The position numbers and the translations under genes are program-made. A stretch of DNA of 31,152 nt from a virus. Each line of letters begins with the position of its first letter. The first letter of the stretch is position 1. Below are positions 7,798 through 29,194 of this stretch, piece after piece. The stretch lies in the UHGV virus genome UHGV-1981267; one strand, 5' to 3'. The notes below the pieces were generated by a model. The model saw nothing but the letters and a program-made list of their open reading frames with translations, searched no databases and had not been told where the DNA came from.

Positions 7798-7826
7798 TAT
7801 CCCCTGCGATGCAGGGGATATTTCTT
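7798..7826. terminator. Bidirectional hairpin between convergent genes
   Basis: Perfect 10-bp stem TATCCCCTGC / GCAGGGGATA with 3-nt loop. T-rich on plus side (TTTCTT). Sits between the plus-strand membrane-protein gene and the sopB 3' end. Confidence 0.5.
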
Positions 7827-8790
7827 AATTATCAGTAGATTGTTCCTCTAGTAACAACTCAATTCTGCTTAGTATTTCTTTAGATATTTTTCGGCTATCA
7901 ATTTTTATAGTTACAAAATTACCTTTATATCTAGCCGTGATCCCTTCCCCATATTTTTTCTCGTCTTTTGTTTTTTCCTCGTCGCCAACTAGAACAGAGT
8001 CAGATAATATTTGTATAATCCGTGAAGCTTCTAAATCCTCGCCGTTTTTTTTAATTGCCAGAAGATGATGAGCAGCATTGCTCATGGCAGTCATGTTTTT
8101 TTTGTAGACCTTAAACAAAGAATCTCCAGCACGAGCTGACAGTTCTCCTGGATGATTGAAGATAGCTAATATATCTTTTGGTAGACCAGCTGTATTAATA
8201 CAGCGAGTGATAATATTTCTGTCTATATTTTCAGCCTCGGCTAATGCTTTAACGTTACCATCAAAGTCATTTAGCTTGCGTAAGTATCTCTTTCCTCTTT
8301 CGTATGCACTAATAGGCCTATAATCGTTACCAATTTGGGATAACCAATGCATCTGTTCATCGTCGAGATCACCTATTAAGACGCGATAGTCACATCCTGT
8401 TAATATCGCTGCTTTTCTTCTACGTGAGCCGTCAGCGACTTCAACGACTCCAGACACTTTTCTGGCGAAAGCTGGATTTTGTTGTCCAGACGTTAGAAAA
8501 GATGGGATTAAATCGGCTAGAGAGGATTCATTTAATAAATCTTGATCGCGTTCATTACCTAGCCATACCATTGTTGCCATTTCAACTTTATCTGCGGGAA
8601 TTGTCTCTAACTTAAAGTTAACATTACGTCCGCATACTGGCAAAGTTATGCTGTTACCGGTTAATGAACTCAGTTGACGTTTTAAATCACCAACCATAGG
8701 TGATACGGGCTGATGTTCAGGGGCATGATGATTATTACTCATAATGCGATTAATATCTGGAGCATTTTTTAGAAGAGAGCGCTGTTTCAT
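7825..8790 (-). CDS. sopB: Partition protein SopB (ParB family)
   Basis: 321 aa. Blocks match recalled F SopB (ITLPVCGR, GNERDQ, IPSFL-GQQ-PAF, ADGSRRRKAA, GNDYRP-SAYERG). Start overlaps sopA stop. Confidence 0.9.
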   Translation of the reverse strand: MKQRSLLKNAPDINRIMSNNHHAPEHQPVSPMVGDLKRQLSSLTGNSITLPVCGRNVNFKLETIPADKVEMATMVWLGNERDQDLLNESSLADLIPSFLTSGQQNPAFARKVSGVVEVADGSRRRKAAILTGCDYRVLIGDLDDEQMHWLSQIGNDYRPISAYERGKRYLRKLNDFDGNVKALAEAENIDRNIITRCINTAGLPKDILAIFNHPGELSARAGDSLFKVYKKNMTAMSNAAHHLLAIKKNGEDLEASRIIQILSDSVLVGDEEKTKDEKKYGEGITARYKGNFVTIKIDSRKISKEILSRIELLLEEQSTDN

Positions 8791-9956
8791 TATTCGTTCT
8801 CCCAGCGAGGTTTTATTAGATCATCAAAAATTTCTCGGCAAACAGGGTCCCATATAGAAACAGCATTTCTCCATGCATTCAATGTTGAACGTTGGTTTGC
8901 TGCTTGTTCAAATACTGTTCTCATTTTTATCTGGCCTTTACCTACTTCATCGGTAACGCGTACAACCTGACGTAATACCATTGATCCCCATGTATTTCTT
9001 ATTTGTTCTTCCATCCATCGTGATTGATTCCCTGTAGTGAGACTATATTTAGTCAGAAGTAAGCGAACGGTTGGCTCAAATCCACCTAGGTCAACGCTTT
9101 CCAATAGATCGAGAAGCATTGTGAAAAACTGTAGAACAGAAGCGTAATCAAATAATTCTGCAGGTGTAGCAACAACAATAACGTCAGCGGCACAAACAAC
9201 GTTAATGGTTCCTGTACCGAGGTTCGGAGCACTATCTATAACGATAACATCGTAGTTATCCCAAACTGATTCAATAGCTGCGCGCAGCATAAGGTGTGGA
9301 GGATGAGGCAATTTACCCTGAGCATGATATTGCATGAGATCTGTTTCTATACGATGTAAAGCTAGGCAGCTAGGGATAATGTCTAGCCCAGGCCAACATG
9401 TTGGCTTTATAGCATATTCAGCGTTATCGCGTTCTCCTAAGTAAAATGGCAGTAAAGTATCCTCGGCATGGATATGTAAATCAGGAACATAACCGTGATA
9501 CATAGAGGCCGTGCCTTGAGGATCGTTACCTTCAACCAAAAGAACACGATGACCTTGTAATGCTAACCATTGAGCTTGATGTACCGCAGACGATGTTTTA
9601 TAAACGCCGCCTTTGTGTGACATAACGGCAAGCACAACAGGGTTTTTATCTTGTGGTCGTTGGTTTGGGTTGCCAAAAACTGCTCGCATACTGTTGATTT
9701 GATCTATGGTATAACCAGCACGACGTTCAATTCTTCCTCTCATTTCAAAGTCAGGTGCAGGTAAACGCCCGCTCTTCTCAGCATCTCTAATTGCTTGAGG
9801 AGTTACACCAATTAAATCTGCTACTTCAGTTATACCCCATCGGCGGGTGATACGCCGAGCTTCAGGACTATCATCACCGAATTGAGCGATAGCAATTGCT
9901 TGGGTCATTTCTTGACCTCTCGTAACACAATCTTGCAATAACTTTTTCAAAGACAT
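8790..9956 (-). CDS. sopA: Partition ATPase SopA (ParA family)
   Basis: 388 aa with deviant Walker A (KGGVYKTS). N-terminal HTH region. Same length as F SopA. Confidence 0.92.
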   Translation of the reverse strand: MSLKKLLQDCVTRGQEMTQAIAIAQFGDDSPEARRITRRWGITEVADLIGVTPQAIRDAEKSGRLPAPDFEMRGRIERRAGYTIDQINSMRAVFGNPNQRPQDKNPVVLAVMSHKGGVYKTSSAVHQAQWLALQGHRVLLVEGNDPQGTASMYHGYVPDLHIHAEDTLLPFYLGERDNAEYAIKPTCWPGLDIIPSCLALHRIETDLMQYHAQGKLPHPPHLMLRAAIESVWDNYDVIVIDSAPNLGTGTINVVCAADVIVVATPAELFDYASVLQFFTMLLDLLESVDLGGFEPTVRLLLTKYSLTTGNQSRWMEEQIRNTWGSMVLRQVVRVTDEVGKGQIKMRTVFEQAANQRSTLNAWRNAVSIWDPVCREIFDDLIKPRWENE

Positions 9957-10604: not shown

Positions 10605-12512
10605 ATGAGCAAAGTAAAAATCGGTGAATTAATAAACTCACTTGTTAGCGATGTTGAGTCAATAGATAACTCTGACCGTCCTCAAGGGGAGAAAACAAAA
10701 AAAATAAAGGCTGTTGCATTAAAATTTAAAAATGCATTATTTAATGACAAGCGAAAGTTTAGGGGGAAAGGATTAGAAAAAAGAATTACAGCCAACACAT
10801 TCAATGCCTATATGAGCAGGGCCAGAAAACGGTTTGATGATAAACTTCATCATAGCTTTGAAAAAAATATACATCGCCTATCTGAAAAGTATCCTTTATA
10901 TAATGAGGAGCTATTGTCATGGCTTTCTCTACCTGCTGCCGATATTCGCCAGAGAATGTCAGCTTTACAGGCAAAATTAAAATTAATTCTCCCTCTATCA
11001 GAAGATTTATCTAATATCAGAATTGGCGATAACAAAAGTCATAACAAGTTATTGAAATTATCAAATAAATATAAAGAGTGGCAATTCGCCATTTCTGATT
11101 TAACTAGCGATAACTGGAAAGATAAGCGCGATTATTTATATAAATTACTACAGCAAGGATCTGCCTTACTTGAGGAGTTGAATCAGCTAAAAGTTAACCA
11201 TGAGATTCTCTATCATCTTCAACTAAGCCCTGCCGAACGTGCATCTATCCAGCAACGATGGGCGGACGTTCTGCACAATAAAAAACGTAACGTGGTGGTC
11301 ATTGATTACCCTAAATATATGCAAGCTATTTACGATATTATAAATAGCCCTGCTACATTAAATAATCTAAACACTCGTTCAGGTATGGCTCCTTTGGCAT
11401 TTGCACTTGCTGCATTGTCAGGAAGACGAATGATTGAGATTATGTATCAAGGTACATTTACTGTTTCTGGTAAGTATACCGTTGATTTTTTAGGCCAAGC
11501 TAAAAAAAGAACTTCTGATGATATAACCAGAAAAATATATACATTATGCGAAGCAAAAACATTTGTTTATTTAATAAATGTACTTCGCTCATGCCCAGCA
11601 GCATCTGATTTTGATGATGTCGTTAAAGGTTATGGAGATAACGACACACGCTCTGAAAACGGACGTATTAATGCCATATTAGCAAAGGCTTTTAACCCGT
11701 GGGTTAAATCATTTTTCAAAGATGACCGCCGTGTTTATAAAGATAGTCGTGCTATTTATGCCCGTATTGCGTATGAAATGTTTTTCCGCGTAGATCCTCG
11801 TTGGAAAAACGTAGATGAAGATGTTTTCTTTATGGAAATTTTAGGCCATGACGATGAAAACACTCAATTACACTATAAGCAATTCAAGCTGGCCAACTTC
11901 TCAAAGACATGGAGGCCAAATACTGGAAACGAAAATACCAGGCTGGAAGCATTGCAGCAGCTTGATGACGAAATGCCTGGATTCGCCAGAGGAGATGCCG
12001 GGGTTCGTCTGCATAACACAGTTAAGCAGCTGGTAGAGCAGGACCCCTCTATAAAAATCACGAACAGCACTCTAAGAGCGTTCAAATTTAGCCCAACAAT
12101 GATTAGTCGATACCTAGAATTTGCTGCTGATGCTCTGGGGCAATTTGTTGGCGAAAACGGACAATGGCAACTGAAAATAGATACTCCAGAAATCGTTATG
12201 CCTGACGAAGAAGAACTGGAAGCAATACCTGAACTGGCGGATGAATTATCAGAGGATGACGATCTGGATGACGACGAAATTGAGATAGAGGAAGAGGAGG
12301 AGGAAGAGGAAGAGGAAGAGAGCGTAGAAGAACAGCAACCGCCTGCACCTTCTTCGCCTGTATCTAAGCCGGTATTTAAGCCGGTGAGAAATATTGGTGA
12401 TGGCTCATACGTTGTTGAGTTTCATTATAATGGCCAGAATTATGCGTGGTCCGGCAGTGCAAACAGCCCCATGTCAGCAATGCAGTTAGCATGGCTGACA
12501 TATTTCGGTTAA
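10605..12512 (+). CDS. telN: Protelomerase (TelN-like telomere resolvase)
   Basis: 635 aa. N-terminus MSKVKIGELIN... matches recalled N15 TelN. Strong SD AGGAGAGG. Adjacent to the tel site. C-terminus carries an acidic poly-Glu tract. Confidence 0.9.
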   Translation: MSKVKIGELINSLVSDVESIDNSDRPQGEKTKKIKAVALKFKNALFNDKRKFRGKGLEKRITANTFNAYMSRARKRFDDKLHHSFEKNIHRLSEKYPLYNEELLSWLSLPAADIRQRMSALQAKLKLILPLSEDLSNIRIGDNKSHNKLLKLSNKYKEWQFAISDLTSDNWKDKRDYLYKLLQQGSALLEELNQLKVNHEILYHLQLSPAERASIQQRWADVLHNKKRNVVVIDYPKYMQAIYDIINSPATLNNLNTRSGMAPLAFALAALSGRRMIEIMYQGTFTVSGKYTVDFLGQAKKRTSDDITRKIYTLCEAKTFVYLINVLRSCPAASDFDDVVKGYGDNDTRSENGRINAILAKAFNPWVKSFFKDDRRVYKDSRAIYARIAYEMFFRVDPRWKNVDEDVFFMEILGHDDENTQLHYKQFKLANFSKTWRPNTGNENTRLEALQQLDDEMPGFARGDAGVRLHNTVKQLVEQDPSIKITNSTLRAFKFSPTMISRYLEFAADALGQFVGENGQWQLKIDTPEIVMPDEEELEAIPELADELSEDDDLDDDEIEIEEEEEEEEEEESVEEQQPPAPSSPVSKPVFKPVRNIGDGSYVVEFHYNGQNYAWSGSANSPMSAMQLAWLTYFG

Positions 12513-18400: not shown

Positions 18401-19450
18401 GATTTCATAGCCAGTCCGCAGGCCGGTATTCCCTTTTCCTTCTGTAGCTGATTTCCGGTCATTATCCAGTGCGCAGGTGATTTTTGCCGCCGGGTACATG
18501 TTTACCAGTTGTTCCACAACATGAACCATGTTGTTAGCGGATACAGCGACAACCACAGCGTCAAAGCGTTTATCTTTTTTCGTGGCAAGCCAGATGGATG
18601 CACCAGTAGCAAAACCTTCTGTAACAGCGATGTTTTGCGCCCCTTTCAGCTCACCGATAACAAAGCAGGCACCGACGAAATCGCCGCTGGTTACGGCGCT
18701 GGTCTGGTATTTTCCACCTTGTTTGTCGATTCGCTGCCAACCAACAATACGACCATCGTAACGACCGTCCAGGTGAGCCAGAGGGATAGACATATACGTG
18801 GTTGGCCCCCTGCTCCATTTTGCGCTGTCGTGACTGGTCACGCGACGCACATCACACGAATTAAAAACGTCACGAATACCTTTTTTAATCGCATATGGCC
18901 ATGAGCCGTCTTCTGCAGGAGCATGTTCCCAAGCACTGTGGAATGCCAGCCATCCCAGCAAACGTTCATGGTCCATTTGGTTGTTTTTCAGGTCATTAAT
19001 TCGTTTTTGTTCTTCACGGCGACGACGTGCTTCGGCCTGACGTTCTATTCTTGCCCGTTCTTCTTCCGGTTGTGCGACCACGGTCGCATTATTCCGTTGT
19101 TGCTCACGGCGATATTCAGAAAACAGGAAGGAGAAACCGCTCCATGAGCCAGCATCGCTGCCTTTATGGACGAAGTTAATGAACGGGTAATCAATCCCTT
19201 TGCTGTGTTCCAGCCGGGAGTAAATTTCTACGCGTCCTTTGAGGCTCTTCTCGAGAGCTTCTGGAGATGTTTTATTGTATGAAGAGTAACGCTCAACACC
19301 CCCGCGAGGGTTGAGTTGGATGTTGTCGGAACAGGCAGACCAGTTGATACCAGCCATCTGTGCCAGCTCGGTTAGTTCATCCCGTGCTGCTTCAATTAGC
19401 GAGAACGGATCGCTGCCAAAGCGATCCGCATAGAAATCGTTTAATGTCAT
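15455..19450 (-). CDS. repA: Replication protein RepA (primase plus helicase, N15 RepA-like)
   Basis: 1331-aa ORF. Walker A GMGSGKS in the central helicase region. Size and position next to cB as in N15. Confidence 0.9.
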   Translation of the reverse strand: MTLNDFYADRFGSDPFSLIEAARDELTELAQMAGINWSACSDNIQLNPRGGVERYSSYNKTSPEALEKSLKGRVEIYSRLEHSKGIDYPFINFVHKGSDAGSWSGFSFLFSEYRREQQRNNATVVAQPEEERARIERQAEARRRREEQKRINDLKNNQMDHERLLGWLAFHSAWEHAPAEDGSWPYAIKKGIRDVFNSCDVRRVTSHDSAKWSRGPTTYMSIPLAHLDGRYDGRIVGWQRIDKQGGKYQTSAVTSGDFVGACFVIGELKGAQNIAVTEGFATGASIWLATKKDKRFDAVVVAVSANNMVHVVEQLVNMYPAAKITCALDNDRKSATEGKGNTGLRTGYEILSKFNDVRCVYPTFEDDPQMECSDFNDLHKLRGLRETARQLFATANRLKTGTDLLSLTLNRLKTIKRDNRRTFAKELLRAVDIGMLTCPVPNSPSDLFNMFCIVLREIGLENIYRATVKDHIARRLNKKCRIAQAPRSFSERITDPNKRPQHITYKRFETSVMTDDVLKYVQSLQGIVIVRAGMGSGKSTGLLRPLMHSSERGISVAHRVSLIGGLWEMMTEGKGVKADILHYQDPGYQEMAPYASKLTICINSIVKNCWQPLMRQHDYFGFDEATQGLRAVLSGRAMENPVAVFNTLIDALARTEQHPIMVDADANDLLVDLAELAMKRREELGLPAWLQIHVIELPVDLRNRETGEPIRVFYTEKDRIMTEVVKAVSNGEKIMLATDSSTFAEDVTATLRMHFPGKKFLCVNQKNKPEPEVEAFTNQPKKMVKKYDGLIYSPSISSGVSIEQKHFDRHFGMFCGEVVPSDAVQMLRRDRTAKEFIIGFDKARAKRETDPQKIERAFAQALLATAGMNGELTDVVFDGDRISMGVANTDFTRMKIKAAAIEASARNDYASNMICIMHSDGYKVSPLATDYAANDIGKDLRKEARDIVWEQTLDLHLNTETPQESEREELLKKRALTLEEQAKLVRWDIENELKLPVEEGTLKFYFDGARDKIRRYETMLLDEVTARRYDREEAAINFTYAYRQAGQWQYFVVTAMTREQADDVFKTKFLGIIDYKVKATPTVEVGARGFYALKSATLRQYFIDCGINPETMTGEATQERLKFARDNLMTAERRDLLNNVLHIGGFMTPKGKPKVPEALFKNICDSLGLKTGKRRGRDGDKRPTLRFVEPESAAFMLDILAQRQKDGLTLKTRKAEKTAIEMDRDLDLNIYMDDKTRSTNEQVQNAPHSVISEALAVLPVVVPESWAMSALSGEELATMSSWSSASIAMTFASLYLTEFMDHLSSNELRRLREYITGNSPCSYEEQGAFYG
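15736..15786. other. Candidate replication origin element inside the repA 3' region
   Basis: Inverted repeat TGGATCGCG ... CGCGATCCA flanking the AT tract CATATATATATT. Three GATC sites within about 50 bp. Confidence 0.35.
19073..19088. other. sopC-like centromere palindrome (inside repA coding sequence)
   Basis: TGCGACCACGGTCGCA: 7-bp inverted arms with 2-bp spacer. One base per arm different from the F sopC core TGGGACC-AC-GGTCCCA as recalled. Confidence 0.7.
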
Positions 19451-21312: not shown

Positions 21313-21558
21313 ATGTTCAGGAAACCGTCGAAGCCAGAATTAAGGTATTCGGGGGTAAGAAATGAATATGTTATCTGGTGTCCAACTTGTGGTTACAGGA
21401 CACGACCAGATAGTAATAAGCAGTCTGTAATTGCCGATTGGTATTTATCAAATCAGCCAGGTAATAAGCATATAGAAAATCTTTGGATTAAGCGTTACTT
21501 GGAAATCAGAGAGGGTGCGACCGTGGTCGCACAAGAAAATGAAAATAACGCCATTTAA
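21313..21558 (+). CDS. Small zinc-ribbon protein
   Basis: Internal ATG of track ORF 21238..21558. CPTCGY motif. Contains a sopC-like site at its 3' end. Confidence 0.4.
   Translation: MFRKPSKPELRYSGVRNEYVIWCPTCGYRTRPDSNKQSVIADWYLSNQPGNKHIENLWIKRYLEIREGATVVAQENENNAI
21516..21531. other. sopC-like centromere palindrome
   Basis: TGCGACCGTGGTCGCA. Confidence 0.7.
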
Positions 21559-24090: not shown

Positions 24091-24333
24091 ATGGATAAAA
24101 AGGCATTGCTTTTTGAAATGATACGAAAACGGAGCGAAAAGAGCTTTTCTGATGGTGGTGATGGGTTTGTTTTCGCTTCGATGCTTGCTTTTGATGTTGG
24201 GTTAAATAGCAGAATTGTTAAAAGGATGCTTGATTCTGCTGTCCGTACTGGACTTCTTGAGAAAGTTGATCGTGGCATAGGGAGAGAGCATAAGTATCGG
24301 GCCACACAGCAGTTTACGCAGTTAATTCATTGA
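24091..24333 (+). CDS. Hypothetical protein
   Basis: 80-aa ORF with SD GGAGGG upstream. Confidence 0.45.
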   Translation: MDKKALLFEMIRKRSEKSFSDGGDGFVFASMLAFDVGLNSRIVKRMLDSAVRTGLLEKVDRGIGREHKYRATQQFTQLIH

Positions 24334-24415
24334 AAATTGACCGTAAAGTTTGAGTTTTACCCTGTAATTTTATACAGTACAAACAACCTTTTTTAGTTAA
24401 ATGGTATGAGATTTA

Positions 24416-24619
24416 ATGTCTGAAGCAGCCGTATCAACTCTTGAACAACTCGATTCAAATTTAAGAGATATTGACGCCATTCTGGATCTGGTTAGCGTCA
24501 CCCTGGCTTCTCCAGAAGCCAGCCTACATATTGGTGAGGTTTCACGACTCATCAACATGTCGCGAGAGATTGCCCAGCATTGTCAGAAAACTATCGCTGT
24601 TGAGCGTTCACATCATTGA
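24416..24619 (+). CDS. Hypothetical protein
   Basis: 67-aa ORF. Convergent with the toxin-antitoxin pair. Confidence 0.4.
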   Translation: MSEAAVSTLEQLDSNLRDIDAILDLVSVTLASPEASLHIGEVSRLINMSREIAQHCQKTIAVERSHH

Positions 24620-24661
24620 TGCACACCCCGCCCTTCTGGACGGGGTAGTAAAAGAGTCTAA

Positions 24662-24949
24662 TTAATAAACAGCGCGAATATCGATGGCTGCGCCGCAGGC
24701 ATGAGCATATTTAGCCAAAGTTTTCATACTTGCCCCTAAAGGATTGCTTTCCAGGCGGCTGATGGCTGACGGTCGTAACCCCATTCGTTCAGCCAGAGCT
24801 GATTTCGTTAAACCTGCTCTTTCCCTCATTTCGTATAACATTTCGACCATCTCCAGCTCTTTGTCGGCCTCTTCATATCCTTTGACGGCTTCTGGAGTGT
24901 TGAGGAGTTTTTCTTTTACTTCGTTAAACGGGATGCCTTTCGCTTTCAT
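24662..24949 (-). CDS. HTH antitoxin (HigA / Xre-like)
   Basis: 95 aa. HTH LTKSALAERMGLRPSAISRLES. Immediately downstream of, and overlapping, the toxin gene. Confidence 0.8.
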   Translation of the reverse strand: MKAKGIPFNEVKEKLLNTPEAVKGYEEADKELEMVEMLYEMRERAGLTKSALAERMGLRPSAISRLESNPLGASMKTLAKYAHACGAAIDIRAVY

Positions 24950-25260
24950 CAGTTCATCTCCTTCAGGCGAGTTCTGGCGATTTCGATAGCCTTCACCGGT
25001 GTTTTCTGTGTCTTTTTTACAAATGCATGCAATAGATAAATTTCGTTACCAGTCGCGTAGACGTACAGCGTTCTTGCGATGTTTTTATCCCCTACTCGTA
25101 GTTCAAAAAGCCCTCCACCTATTACACGGCTATGGGGCATCTTCAGTTTGTTGCCTTCTTTCTCCAGTCGCTCAATTAATCTGGCCATGCGACCTCGCAA
25201 ATCATCTGGTAGTTCAAGCAGTTCATCCAGTGCTGCAGGGTGGGTTATCACGTTAAACAT
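24949..25260 (-). CDS. RelE/ParE-superfamily toxin (HigB / Gp49-like)
   Basis: ATG at 25260 with SD GGAGG. Motifs GGGLFELRVGDK..IARTLYVYATGNEIYLLHAFVKKTQKTP typical of this toxin family. Track ORF extends to 25305. Confidence 0.8.
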   Translation of the reverse strand: MFNVITHPAALDELLELPDDLRGRMARLIERLEKEGNKLKMPHSRVIGGGLFELRVGDKNIARTLYVYATGNEIYLLHAFVKKTQKTPVKAIEIARTRLKEMN

Positions 25261-25425
25261 ATTATAGCCTCCACATCCATAAAATACACCAAAACAAGAA
25301 AACAATGTAAATTAAAAATTTCACTAAAAAGCGAAAAATAACACTGGATGTGTTCGTTTGGCAGAGTTACAGTTCGTGTCATTGAGGGGCAATAACCCAC
25401 TAACTATATGAATTTGGAGGATATT

Positions 25426-25647
25426 ATGAATTATCAAGGTAACGAAAAAATGCGCGACGACGTTGCGGAGATAGCTAACGAACTGTATGAGTTGTGGCAG
25501 AAGGTTGAACGTTTCGAAAAGGAATATGGTTTCAACAGTACCAACCTGGCAGACCGACTGGCTGGTCGCTTAGTTGGGACTATGGGGCCAAAACTGGCTG
25601 AGTTGAACCGCTTTATGGCTGATGTTGATTTCCAGTTTCAAGATTGA
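25426..25647 (+). CDS. Hypothetical protein
   Basis: ATG at 25426 with SD GGAGG (25416..25420). Track ORF begins at 25408. Confidence 0.5.
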   Translation: MNYQGNEKMRDDVAEIANELYELWQKVERFEKEYGFNSTNLADRLAGRLVGTMGPKLAELNRFMADVDFQFQD

Positions 25648-25888: not shown

Positions 25889-25894
25889 AAACTG

Positions 25895-25910
25895 TGCGAC
25901 CACGGTCGCA
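25895..25910. other. sopC-like centromere palindrome
   Basis: TGCGACCACGGTCGCA, within the longer palindrome CTGTGCGACCACGGTCGCACAG. Confidence 0.7.
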
Positions 25911-25930
25911 CAGCACAAAAACGAAAAAGC

Positions 25931-28914: not shown

Positions 28915-28934
28915 AAATCTCTTTGTTTCTCGTG

Positions 28935-28950
28935 TGCGACCGTGGTCGCA
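28935..28950. other. sopC-like centromere palindrome
   Basis: TGCGACCGTGGTCGCA. Confidence 0.7.
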
Positions 28951-28961
28951 CATTAAATACC

Positions 28962-29138: not shown

Positions 29139-29154
29139 CATGTATTCAGGAGCG

Positions 29155-29170
29155 TGCGACCGTGGTCGCA
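29155..29170. other. sopC-like centromere palindrome
   Basis: TGCGACCGTGGTCGCA. Confidence 0.7.
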
Positions 29171-29194
29171 CGGTATCTTTGTCAGGAGGTTTTG

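What the first reader, a model, noticed from the sequence alone, without database searches (positions are those of the whole stretch)
24662..25260. HigB/HigA-like toxin-antitoxin pair in the accessory region
A toxin-first operon on the minus strand: a RelE/ParE-superfamily toxin with the YLLHAFVKKTQKTP motif, overlapping an Xre-type HTH antitoxin. In an extrachromosomal prophage this could provide post-segregational killing in addition to SopAB, or act as a phage-defence or anti-defence element.
Basis: partly seen in the sequence, partly recalled or inferred. Interest (0 to 1): 0.5.

Follow-up and report, generated by a model that had tools for sequence, protein, structure and literature searches.

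The report
N15-type Gp49/Gp48 toxin-antitoxin pair
This is a real two-gene toxin-antitoxin module, the direct counterpart of genes 49 and 48 of the linear plasmid-prophage N15, which were reported as a plasmid-stabilising addiction system in 2007, so the finding is correct but ordinary.

Summary
On the minus strand, a 103-aa toxin gene (25260-24949) is followed by a 95-aa Xre-type HTH gene (24949-24662). The toxin stop and the antitoxin start share one base. The window is an N15-like (Ravinvirus) linear phage-plasmid carrying SopAB, protelomerase, RepA, CB repressor and Q.

The toxin is 90% identical to N15 gp49, the protein that gave Pfam family Gp49 (PF05973) its name. The antitoxin is 85% identical to N15 gp48. 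The N15 pair was described as a toxin-antitoxin stabilising system of the Tad-Ata class (Dziewit 2007).

The toxin model has a RelE-type fold. Its closest solved structure is ribosome-bound M. tuberculosis HigB1, and it keeps the catalytic residues E53, R55, R63 and K82. Both genes are under strong purifying selection. The same cassette, with its own promoter and palindrome, also sits in unrelated chromosomal sites.

"HigBA-like" is right only in the loose Gp49 sense: canonical HigB, RelE, ParE and HigA models do not match. The likely mechanism is a ribosome-dependent mRNA nuclease held in check by a DNA-binding antitoxin, giving post-segregational killing. A phage-defence role is not excluded.

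Novelty: already known. Interest: low.

The parts
24949..25260 (-). Toxin gene, the orthologue of N15 gene 49 (103 aa plus stop). Gp49/Tad-type member of the RelE/ParE superfamily.
   Evidence: Pfam PF05973, 101.5 bits. PHROG 2523, E 2e-43. 90% identical to N15 gp49 and 89% to phiKO2 Gp49. AF2 model pLDDT 85.8. Foldseek best hit is 7nbu_Y, HigB1 on the ribosome, TM 0.79. Catalytic equivalents E53, R55, R63 and K82 are invariant in 45 homologues.
24662..24949 (-). Antitoxin gene, the orthologue of N15 gene 48 (95 aa plus stop). An N-terminal stretch of about 35 aa is followed by an Xre/HTH_3 DNA-binding domain (residues about 36-92).
   Evidence: Pfam HTH_3, E 8e-12. PHROG 1373, E 5e-36. 85% identical to N15 gp48. 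A profile of orthologues matches S. pneumoniae HigA (6af3_B) over positions 10-89, and M. tuberculosis HigA2 and HigA3.
25268..25272 (-). Shine-Dalgarno sequence GGAGG of the toxin gene.
   Evidence: Read directly from the sequence. GGAGG is kept in six of the seven aligned upstream regions; Serratia has AGGGAGG.
25281..25311 (-). Candidate promoter of the toxin-antitoxin operon: -35 TTTACA at 25311-25306 and -10 TGTATT/TATTTT at 25288-25281.
   Evidence: In N15, phiKO2, Klebsiella, Serratia and Xenorhabdus the aligned stretch reads TTGnnn, 17 nt, TATATT (TACTAT in Serratia). In the window this is degenerate: a 1-nt deletion and G at -10 position 2. The best hand-scan match is TTTACA-19 nt-TATTTT, 9 of 12. 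The consensus scanner did not call it. Inferred, not shown.
25319..25336 (-). Promoter-proximal imperfect palindrome TTTCGCT-TTTT-AGTGAAA. Candidate Gp48 operator; alternatively a weak insulating hairpin or terminator.
   Evidence: Perfect in N15 and phiKO2 (TTTCACT/AGTGAAA). In the Xenorhabdus chromosomal cassette it is TTTCTCT/AGAGAAA, changed symmetrically in both arms. RNA fold -5.8 kcal/mol. The N15 record annotates it as a putative rho-independent terminator.
24625..24646 (.). GC-rich hairpin between the antitoxin stop and the convergent gp47-like ORF. Possible 3' end structure of the operon.
   Evidence: Inverted repeat with 9-nt arms. RNA fold -19.4 kcal/mol on the minus strand, z -3.2. 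No U-tract on either strand, and the terminator scan did not call it.

Best explanation
The pair is a type II toxin-antitoxin module of the Gp49/Tad-Ata class, sometimes called Gp49-type HigBA. It is orthologous to genes 49 and 48 of the linear plasmid-prophage N15.

Proposed mechanism:
1. Both genes are transcribed from one promoter, toxin first, and are translationally coupled through the 1-nt stop/start overlap.
2. The toxin is a small RelE-fold endoribonuclease. It enters the ribosomal A site and cleaves the mRNA being translated. Its catalytic set is E53, R55, R63 and K82, with R45, N60, F80, Q85 and K86 in support.
3. The antitoxin neutralises the toxin through its N-terminal segment. 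Through its Xre HTH domain it binds repeats around the operon promoter and represses it.
4. If a daughter cell loses the plasmid-prophage, the antitoxin is no longer replenished and the freed toxin stops growth. This adds post-segregational killing to SopAB partition.

What is shown here: gene structure, family membership, fold, conserved catalytic residues, purifying selection, cassette autonomy and orthology to N15 gp49/gp48.

What is inferred: RNase activity, from homologues. The stabilising function rests on the title of the N15 study, which I could not read. Antitoxin lability and the identity of the operator are also inferred.
For: Family and orthology:
- The toxin hits Pfam Gp49 only, at 101.5 bits against a cut-off of 23.9.
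- It is 90% identical to N15 gp49; the antitoxin is 85% identical to N15 gp48.
- The syntenic slot is the same as in N15, phiKO2 and YDC107_1.
- The window is an N15-like phage-plasmid with SopB, SopA, protelomerase, RepA, CB-like repressor and Q. It is 98.7% identical to phage PhiR46_1.

Fold and active site:
- The AF2 model (pLDDT 85.8) has the order strand-helix-helix-four strands-long C-terminal helix.
- The best structural matches are M. tuberculosis HigB1 bound to the ribosome (7nbu_Y, TM 0.79) and S. pneumoniae HigB, followed by RelE and YoeB. Sequence and profile hits agree.
- The residues shown by mutagenesis to be needed for HigB1 toxicity (K58, E66, R68, N73, R77, K95, K99; PMC9098466) align with R45, E53, R55, N60, R63, K82 and K86 here. 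The R63-R77 match needs a one-residue shift in the HigB1 alignment, but is direct against S. pneumoniae HigB R73.
- E53, R55, R63 and K82 are invariant in 45 homologues.

Selection and autonomy:
- dN/dS is 0.02-0.09 with saturated dS.
- The Gp49+HTH cassette recurs in unrelated contexts: Buttiauxella, Yersinia and Xenorhabdus chromosomes, and a Thermodesulfobacteriota contig next to restriction-modification genes.
- In Xenorhabdus its promoter and palindrome architecture is kept.

Literature:
- N15 gp49-gp48 is reported as a toxin-antitoxin stabilising system homologous to tad-ata (Dziewit 2007, cited).
- Gp49-family toxins are listed as ribosome-dependent mRNases with toxin-first order (PMC11980606).

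Distribution: in 5,426 complete E. coli genomes the locus occurs in 16, always on plasmid records.
Against: - Nothing was measured on this sequence or its products.
- I could not read the primary N15 paper, so the N15 result rests on its title and on how others cite it.
- Two Gp49-family toxins of M. tuberculosis (HigB2, HigB3) were not toxic in the same assays in which HigB1 was (PMC9098466). Family membership therefore does not guarantee activity.
- Deleting the related SXT pair s044-s045 did not raise loss of SXT (PMC2654960). Stabilising a test plasmid does not prove a role in the native element.
- In this lineage the promoter and palindrome are degenerate compared with N15: G at -10 position 2, a 1-nt spacer deletion and one arm mismatch.
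- The consensus promoter scan found nothing there.
Confidence: 0.87

Rival explanations
1. The biochemistry is the same, but the main biological role is anti-phage abortive infection or exclusion of competing phages, not plasmid stabilisation. Infection would destabilise or titrate the antitoxin, and the freed RNase would shut down translation before the invader completes its cycle.
For: A Gp49-family HigB in an E. coli toxin-antitoxin-chaperone module is reported to act in abortive infection (PMC11980606). The same review argues for a general defence role of RelE/ParE-fold toxins. The cassette also lies on chromosomes where plasmid stabilisation has no meaning, once next to restriction-modification genes. 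PADLOC gives a domain-level hit of the toxin to the C-terminus of NsnC, E 1.5e-7.
Against: No PADLOC system model matches either full protein. The known defence example needs a SecB-like chaperone as sensor, and this pair has none; the neighbours are gp47-like and gp50-like ORFs. In E. coli the locus is found only on plasmid-prophages, which fits an addiction role. The two roles are not exclusive.
Confidence: 0.2
2. The toxin is attenuated or inactive, like M. tuberculosis HigB2 and HigB3. The pair would then act mainly as a transcription-factor module, with Gp48 an Xre regulator and Gp49 its co-repressor, within the phage's early right-arm circuitry.
For: HigB2 and HigB3 of the same Pfam family were non-toxic (PMC9098466). 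RefSeq annotates N15 and phiKO2 gp48 simply as a transcriptional regulator. The intergenic region shared with the divergent gp50 gene is unusually well conserved.
Against: All residues needed for HigB1 toxicity are kept, and four of them are invariant across 45 homologues. dN/dS of the toxin is 0.02-0.05. The N15 orthologue is reported as a stabilising toxin-antitoxin system (Dziewit 2007).
Confidence: 0.06
3. The toxin is a ParE-like poison of DNA gyrase, or hits another non-ribosomal target, rather than an mRNA nuclease.
For: The RelE/ParE superfamily contains both activities, and RefSeq's name, "RelE/ParE family toxin", does not choose between them. ParE complexes appear among the weaker fold matches.
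Against: Pfam ParE_toxin does not match even at E<=10. The top sequence and structure matches are all RNases; ParE structures appear only at TM about 0.5 and E>=1e-2. The RNase catalytic residues are conserved. Gp49-family members are listed as ribosome-dependent mRNases.
Confidence: 0.04

Closest known systems
Bacteriophage N15 gp49-gp48 (the Tad-Ata-like module; gp49 gave Pfam PF05973 its name)
   Same: Orthologous: 90% and 85% protein identity, same lengths (103 and 95 aa), same toxin-first order, and the same slot between gp47 and gp50 in an N15-type linear plasmid-prophage. The upstream palindrome, promoter and SD layout are shared.
   Different: DNA identity is only about 76-80%, with synonymous sites at or near saturation. 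This lineage has a degenerate palindrome (G.T mismatch), a changed -35/-10 region and a 1-nt spacer deletion. An extra gp47-like ORF lies downstream of the antitoxin.
Tad-Ata of Paracoccus aminophilus plasmid pAMI2 and s045-s044 of ICE SXT
   Same: Same class as defined in the literature: a COG4679/DUF891 (Gp49) toxin upstream of an Xre HTH antitoxin, reported to stabilise plasmids (PMC2701414, PMC2654960).
   Different: I did not compare these sequences directly. The s044-s045 deletion did not destabilise SXT, so the role in the native element may differ.
M. tuberculosis HigB1-HigA1 (the TAC system) and S. pneumoniae HigBA
   Same: Same Pfam family, and the best sequence and structure matches. 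The long C-terminal helix and the catalytic E, R, R, K set are shared. The antitoxin profile matches SpHigA almost end to end.
   Different: Only 23-28% identity. There is no SecB-like chaperone gene here. The context is a phage-plasmid rather than a chromosome.
Canonical HigBA (Rts1 and E. coli K-12; Pfam PF05015/PF09907 with a HigA antidote)
   Same: Toxin-first order, RelE-fold toxin, HTH antitoxin and a plasmid-stabilising role.
   Different: Apart from Gp49, no Pfam model matches the toxin even at E<=10, so the HigB models do not match it, and the NCBIfam hit list for the antitoxin contains no HigA model. E. coli and Shigella HigB structures are only weak fold matches, TM 0.5-0.6.
Phd-Doc of phage-plasmid P1
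   Same: The functional analogue: an addiction module of a plasmid-prophage acting alongside an active partition system (role as described in papers cited).
   Different: Unrelated proteins (Fic-fold kinase toxin) and antitoxin-first order.

Membership tests
Pfam PF05973 Gp49 / Tad toxins (RelE/ParE superfamily) | Profile match above the curated gathering score | tested here: met
   101.5 bits against a cut-off of 23.9, covering profile positions 1-90 of 90. All 120 listed homologues but one carry PF05973.
Pfam PF05973 Gp49 / Tad toxins (RelE/ParE superfamily) | RelE-type fold: a four-stranded antiparallel sheet packed against N-terminal helices, with the long C-terminal helix typical of Gp49-type toxins | tested here: met
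   AF2 model, pLDDT 85.8, elements E3-6, H8-15, H19-38, E44-48, E51-58, E61-70, E73-82, H89-102. Foldseek TM 0.79 to 7nbu_Y, 0.73-0.80 to 6af3/6af4 chains, then RelE and YoeB. Fold as described in PMC9098466.
Pfam PF05973 Gp49 / Tad toxins (RelE/ParE superfamily) | Catalytic and mRNA-binding residues equivalent to HigB1 E66, R68, R77, K95 (RelE K54, R61, R81) | tested here: met
   They align with E53, R55, R63 and K82. All four are invariant in the 45-sequence alignment.
Pfam PF05973 Gp49 / Tad toxins (RelE/ParE superfamily) | Ribosome-dependent mRNA cleavage, and growth arrest when expressed alone | not testable with these tools
   Known for HigB1 and listed for the family. Toxicity is not universal, since HigB2 and HigB3 were non-toxic.
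Type II toxin-antitoxin module, Tad-Ata / Gp49-HTH class | Toxin gene directly upstream of, and coupled to, a small Xre-HTH antitoxin gene | tested here: met
   1-nt overlap here. The same pairing is seen in N15, phiKO2, Buttiauxella, Yersinia, Xenorhabdus, Serratia, Photorhabdus, Klebsiella and a Thermodesulfobacteriota contig.
Type II toxin-antitoxin module, Tad-Ata / Gp49-HTH class | The cassette behaves as an autonomous unit found in unrelated genomic contexts | tested here: met
   Chromosomal copies lie among formate-hydrogenlyase genes in Buttiauxella, downstream of mfd in Yersinia, and next to restriction-modification genes in a Thermodesulfobacteriota contig. The Xenorhabdus chromosomal copy keeps the promoter and palindrome.
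Type II toxin-antitoxin module, Tad-Ata / Gp49-HTH class | The antitoxin neutralises the toxin by direct binding, is proteolytically labile, and autorepresses the operon | not testable with these tools
   Only indirect support: a full-length profile match to S. pneumoniae HigA from the HigBA complex structure, and a conserved palindrome next to the promoter.
Type II toxin-antitoxin module, Tad-Ata / Gp49-HTH class | Stabilises an unstable replicon (post-segregational killing) | not testable with these tools
   Reported for the N15 orthologue (title of Dziewit 2007, cited). The primary paper is not held.
Canonical HigB/HigA (Pfam PF05015 or PF09907 toxin; NCBIfam HigA antidote) | Profile match to the HigB and HigA models | tested here: not met
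   At E<=10 the toxin matches only Gp49 in Pfam. The antitoxin's NCBIfam hits are HipB, PuuR, RstR and MqsA-type HTH models, all far below their cut-offs, with no HigA model among them.
ParE gyrase-poison family (Pfam PF05016) | Profile match to ParE_toxin; ParE-like rather than RNase active site | tested here: not met
   No Pfam match at E<=10. ParE structures are only distant fold matches. The RNase residues are present.
Catalogued anti-phage defence systems (PADLOC-DB 2.0) | Full-length match of the proteins to the component models of a system | tested here: not met
   Only a 53-residue match of the toxin (residues 43-95) to positions 229-282 of the 293-position NsnC model, and generic HTH matches for the antitoxin.

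The most novel reading that the evidence does not exclude
In N15-type phage-plasmids the Gp49-Gp48 module might not be only an addiction system. It could double as an abortive-infection or exclusion device against competing phages. The E. coli lineage seen here, with its altered promoter and degenerate palindrome, might be regulated differently from N15, for example with weaker autorepression and higher basal expression. My evidence does not exclude this, and it does not support it beyond analogy with a chaperone-linked Gp49-family HigB reported to give abortive infection.
Probability: 0.15. Interest if true: 0.35.

Novelty: already known. Interest (0 to 1): 0.08.

Why it matters
It matters little beyond correct annotation. 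The pair should be labelled as the N15 gp49/gp48 (Tad-Ata, Gp49-type) toxin-antitoxin module. The phage records PhiR46_1 and YDC107_1 currently call the toxin a "hypothetical protein". Together with SopAB and the dispersed centromere sites, the module helps explain how this low-copy linear plasmid-prophage is kept in E. coli. Two modest open points remain. One is whether the module also protects lysogens against other phages. The other is what the conserved palindrome upstream of the promoter does.

Tried and rejected
- NCBIfam gave no usable hit for the toxin. The best was TIGR02683, E 0.018, far below its cut-off. The RefSeq name evidently rests on the Pfam family.
- The consensus promoter and terminator scans found nothing useful in the operon's flanks. 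They returned one promoter-like site inside the gp50 start region and one terminator-like site inside the antitoxin gene, both within chance expectation.
- The exact-seed inverted-repeat search missed the upstream palindrome because of its mismatch. It was found by alignment and a custom scan.
- The primary paper on the N15 module (Dziewit 2007; DOI 10.1128/JB.01610-06, PMC1855756) is not held. Its content is cited only through its title and other papers.
- I considered the N15 record's reading of the palindrome as a rho-independent terminator. It remains possible, with a weak stem of -5.8 kcal/mol and a U-run in this window only. It is less attractive because the element travels with the cassette into a chromosome.
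- I considered the 118-aa TTG start at 25305 and rejected it on homologue lengths and the position of the SD sequence.
- I did not run a second large protein search or a structure prediction for the antitoxin, because profile matches already placed it.

Full report
**1. What is there**

Reading the minus strand of 24400-25600 and the ORF list gives two adjacent small genes.

- The upstream gene starts at ATG 25260 and ends with TGA at 24951-24949 (103 aa). It is preceded by GGAGG at 25272-25268.
- The downstream gene starts at ATG 24949, sharing one base with that stop codon (TGATG), and ends at 24662 (95 aa).
- The ORF list offers a longer 118-aa version from TTG 25305. Homologues are 102-108 aa and start at the same MFNV position, and the related phages are annotated with the 103-aa form.

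**2. What the window is**

The large ORFs of the window are:

- SopB (7825-8790, minus strand)
- SopA (8790-9956, minus strand)
- a protelomerase (10605-12512)
- a Bro-N protein
- a 1331-aa RepA-like primase/origin-binding protein
- an HTH/S24 repressor
- a Q antiterminator
- a DNA methylase

The DNA is 98.7% identical to Escherichia phage PhiR46_1 and 98% to YDC107_1 (genus Ravinvirus). It is about 75% identical to N15 and phiKO2 over the replication and immunity region.

**3. Identity of the pair**

Toxin:
- The only Pfam hit is Gp49 (PF05973), 101.5 bits, E 2.7e-29, over the whole profile, even when the E-value limit is raised to 10.
- That family is named after gp49 of phage N15. The toxin is 90% identical to N15 gp49 and 89% to phiKO2 Gp49.

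Antitoxin:
- It hits HTH_3 and related Xre-type models over residues 36-92.
- It is 85% identical to N15 gp48 and 80% to phiKO2 Gp48.

Synteny and annotation:
- The pair sits in the same place in N15, phiKO2, YDC107_1, a Klebsiella element and a Serratia element. It points against the surrounding early genes, between gp47-like and gp50/gp51-like ORFs.
- RefSeq already names the N15 and phiKO2 toxins, and the 16 E. coli plasmid copies, "type II toxin-antitoxin system RelE/ParE family toxin".

**4. It is a maintained, functional-looking unit**

- Between the window, N15 and phiKO2 the coding DNA is only 73-81% identical. Synonymous sites are at or near saturation (dS from about 1.1 to beyond what the method can estimate), while dN is 0.03-0.13. 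That gives dN/dS of 0.02-0.09.
- The same two-gene cassette occurs in quite different settings:
  - among formate-hydrogenlyase genes in the Buttiauxella chromosome;
  - downstream of mfd on a Yersinia contig;
  - in the Xenorhabdus chromosome;
  - as two divergent copies in Photorhabdus;
  - next to restriction-modification genes in a Thermodesulfobacteriota contig.

This mobility as a pair is the usual behaviour of type II toxin-antitoxin modules.

**5. Fold and active site**

An AlphaFold2 model built on 45 homologues has mean pLDDT 85.8 and pTM 0.80. The order of elements is short strand, two helices, four strands, long C-terminal helix.

Foldseek against the PDB ranks the matches as follows:
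- M. tuberculosis HigB1 bound to the 70S ribosome (7nbu_Y, TM 0.79) and its crystal structure (7awk);
- S. pneumoniae HigB (6af3/6af4, TM 0.73-0.80);
- then RelE, YoeB and YafQ;
- ParE complexes come only further down, at TM about 0.5.

Sequence searches agree. SpHigB scores E 4.7e-5 with the single sequence and 1.6e-10 with the profile; HigB1 scores 4e-7 with the profile.

The HigB1 paper lists K58, E66, R68, N73, R77, K95 and K99 as needed for toxicity. It equates R68, R77 and K95 with RelE K54, R61 and R81, and with SpHigB R68, R73 and K92 (PMC9098466). In the alignments these correspond to R45, E53, R55, N60, R63, K82 and K86 of the window's protein. The R63-R77 equivalence needs a one-residue shift in the HigB1 alignment, but it is direct in the SpHigB alignment. 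E53, R55, R63 and K82 are invariant across the 45-sequence alignment. A recent survey lists the Gp49 family as ribosome-dependent mRNases with toxin-first order (PMC11980606).

**6. The antitoxin**

A profile of six orthologues hits many bare HTH domains (HipB and others). The matches that extend into the N-terminal part are the partners of Gp49-type toxins:
- S. pneumoniae HigA from the HigBA complex (profile positions 10-89);
- M. tuberculosis HigA3 (positions 30-93);
- M. tuberculosis HigA2 (positions 38-93).

The first 35 residues lie outside the HTH. I infer that they carry the toxin-neutralising contacts.

**7. Regulation (inferred)**

The 147-bp spacer to the divergent gp50-like gene is better conserved than the coding DNA, with 84% mean column identity among the window, N15 and phiKO2.

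The half next to the toxin gene is shared even with the Xenorhabdus chromosomal cassette. It consists of:
- a palindrome TTTCACT-TTTT-AGTGAAA, which is TTTCTCT/AGAGAAA in Xenorhabdus, a symmetric change in both arms;
- then TTGnnn, 17 nt, TATATT;
- then GGAGG and the ATG.

This regulatory DNA therefore belongs to the cassette. I read it as the operon promoter with an adjacent Gp48 operator.

The N15 record calls the palindrome a putative rho-independent terminator. In the window the stem is weak (-5.8 kcal/mol) and is followed by a U-run, so an insulating terminator cannot be excluded.

In the window's lineage the elements are degenerate. There is a G.T mismatch in the palindrome (25336-25319), a 1-nt spacer deletion, -10 TGTATT/TATTTT (25288-25281) and -35 TTTACA (25311-25306). 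The generic consensus scan found no promoter there.

Downstream of the antitoxin, a GC-rich hairpin (24625-24646, -19.4 kcal/mol) lacks a U-tract.

**8. What is already known**

- The defining paper is Dziewit et al. [quoted passage not shown] I could not read it.
- Others cite it as validating Gp49-domain toxin modules (PMC5906591).
- The gp49-gp48 locus of N15 is named as the chaperone-less relative of mycobacterial HigBA (PMC3581621).
- One caution comes from Wozniak and Waldor. The SXT homologues stabilised a test plasmid, but their deletion did not destabilise SXT (PMC2654960).

**9. Rivals**

- A defence role is plausible by analogy. A Gp49-family HigB in a toxin-antitoxin-chaperone module is reported to give abortive infection. 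However, no PADLOC system model fits, and there is no chaperone gene here.
- An inactive toxin, as for HigB2 and HigB3, is unlikely given the conserved catalytic residues and the strong constraint.
- A ParE-like action is not supported by profile, fold or residues.

**10. Verdict**

"HigBA-like" holds only in the Gp49/Tad-Ata sense, because the canonical HigB and HigA profiles do not match. The module is the known N15 gp49-gp48 system in a close relative of deposited phages. In 5,426 complete E. coli genomes it occurs 16 times, always on plasmid records. It is already known, and interest is low.

Noticed in passing
window 19072-19089, 21515-21532, 25894-25911, 28934-28951, 29154-29171: There are five dispersed copies of the 18-bp palindrome GTGCGACC(AC/GT)GGTCGCAC, against 0.03 expected by chance. 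The phiKO2 record annotates the same sequence as a putative plasmid partitioning site. These are presumably the scattered SopB centromere sites typical of N15-type prophages. One copy lies directly after the gp51-like ORF, about 630 bp from the toxin-antitoxin pair.
   Followed up: partly
window 25341-25407: The gp50-proximal half of the spacer between the toxin gene and the divergent gp50-like ORF holds blocks that are nearly invariant among the window, N15, phiKO2 and a Klebsiella element, although the coding DNA around them has diverged to about 76%. The blocks are GACACGAACTGTAACTCTG (25362-25380, unique in the window) and CACATCCAG. They are absent from the chromosomal cassettes, so they belong to the phage, perhaps as the promoter or control site of gp50-gp51.
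   Followed up: partly
window 25281-25336: Compared with N15, phiKO2, Klebsiella and Xenorhabdus, this E. coli lineage has a degenerate operon promoter region. There is an A-to-G change at the second position of the conserved TATATT, a 1-nt deletion in the spacer, a shifted -35 (TTTACA), and an A-to-G change that turns one palindrome pair into G.T. I did not explore whether this alters expression.
   Followed up: no
window 24625-24646: A strong GC-rich hairpin (-19.4 kcal/mol on the minus-strand RNA) lies between the antitoxin stop and the convergent 67-aa gp47-like ORF (24416-24619). It has no U-tract on either strand, so it is not a canonical intrinsic terminator.
   Followed up: partly
window 24091-24333 and 24416-24619: Two small plus-strand ORFs downstream of the antitoxin are both annotated "putative gp47" in YDC107_1. 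In N15 the corresponding interval holds a single gene 47 and a gap of about 380 bp.
   Followed up: no
L011 1701-3093 (Photorhabdus contig SBIJ01000063.1): Two Gp49+HTH cassettes sit back to back in divergent orientation, next to phage tail-fibre genes.
   Followed up: no
L004-L006 3001-3596 (Buttiauxella), L007 (Yersinia), L009 (Xenorhabdus): Close homologues of the cassette (67-76% toxin identity) are inserted as bare two-gene units among chromosomal housekeeping genes, for example between formate dehydrogenase/ferredoxin genes and hycI. No phage genes flank them.
   Followed up: partly
window 24662-25420 compared with complete E. coli genomes: The locus occurs in 16 of 5,426 complete E. coli genomes. 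It is always on plasmid records of 36-75 kb and never on a chromosome, at 92-99% identity.
   Followed up: yes
window 25408-25647 (gp50-like ORF): The divergent neighbour had no Pfam hit in my scan. Its counterparts in the Klebsiella and Serratia elements carry the precomputed Pfam family YubE, PF27407.
   Followed up: no
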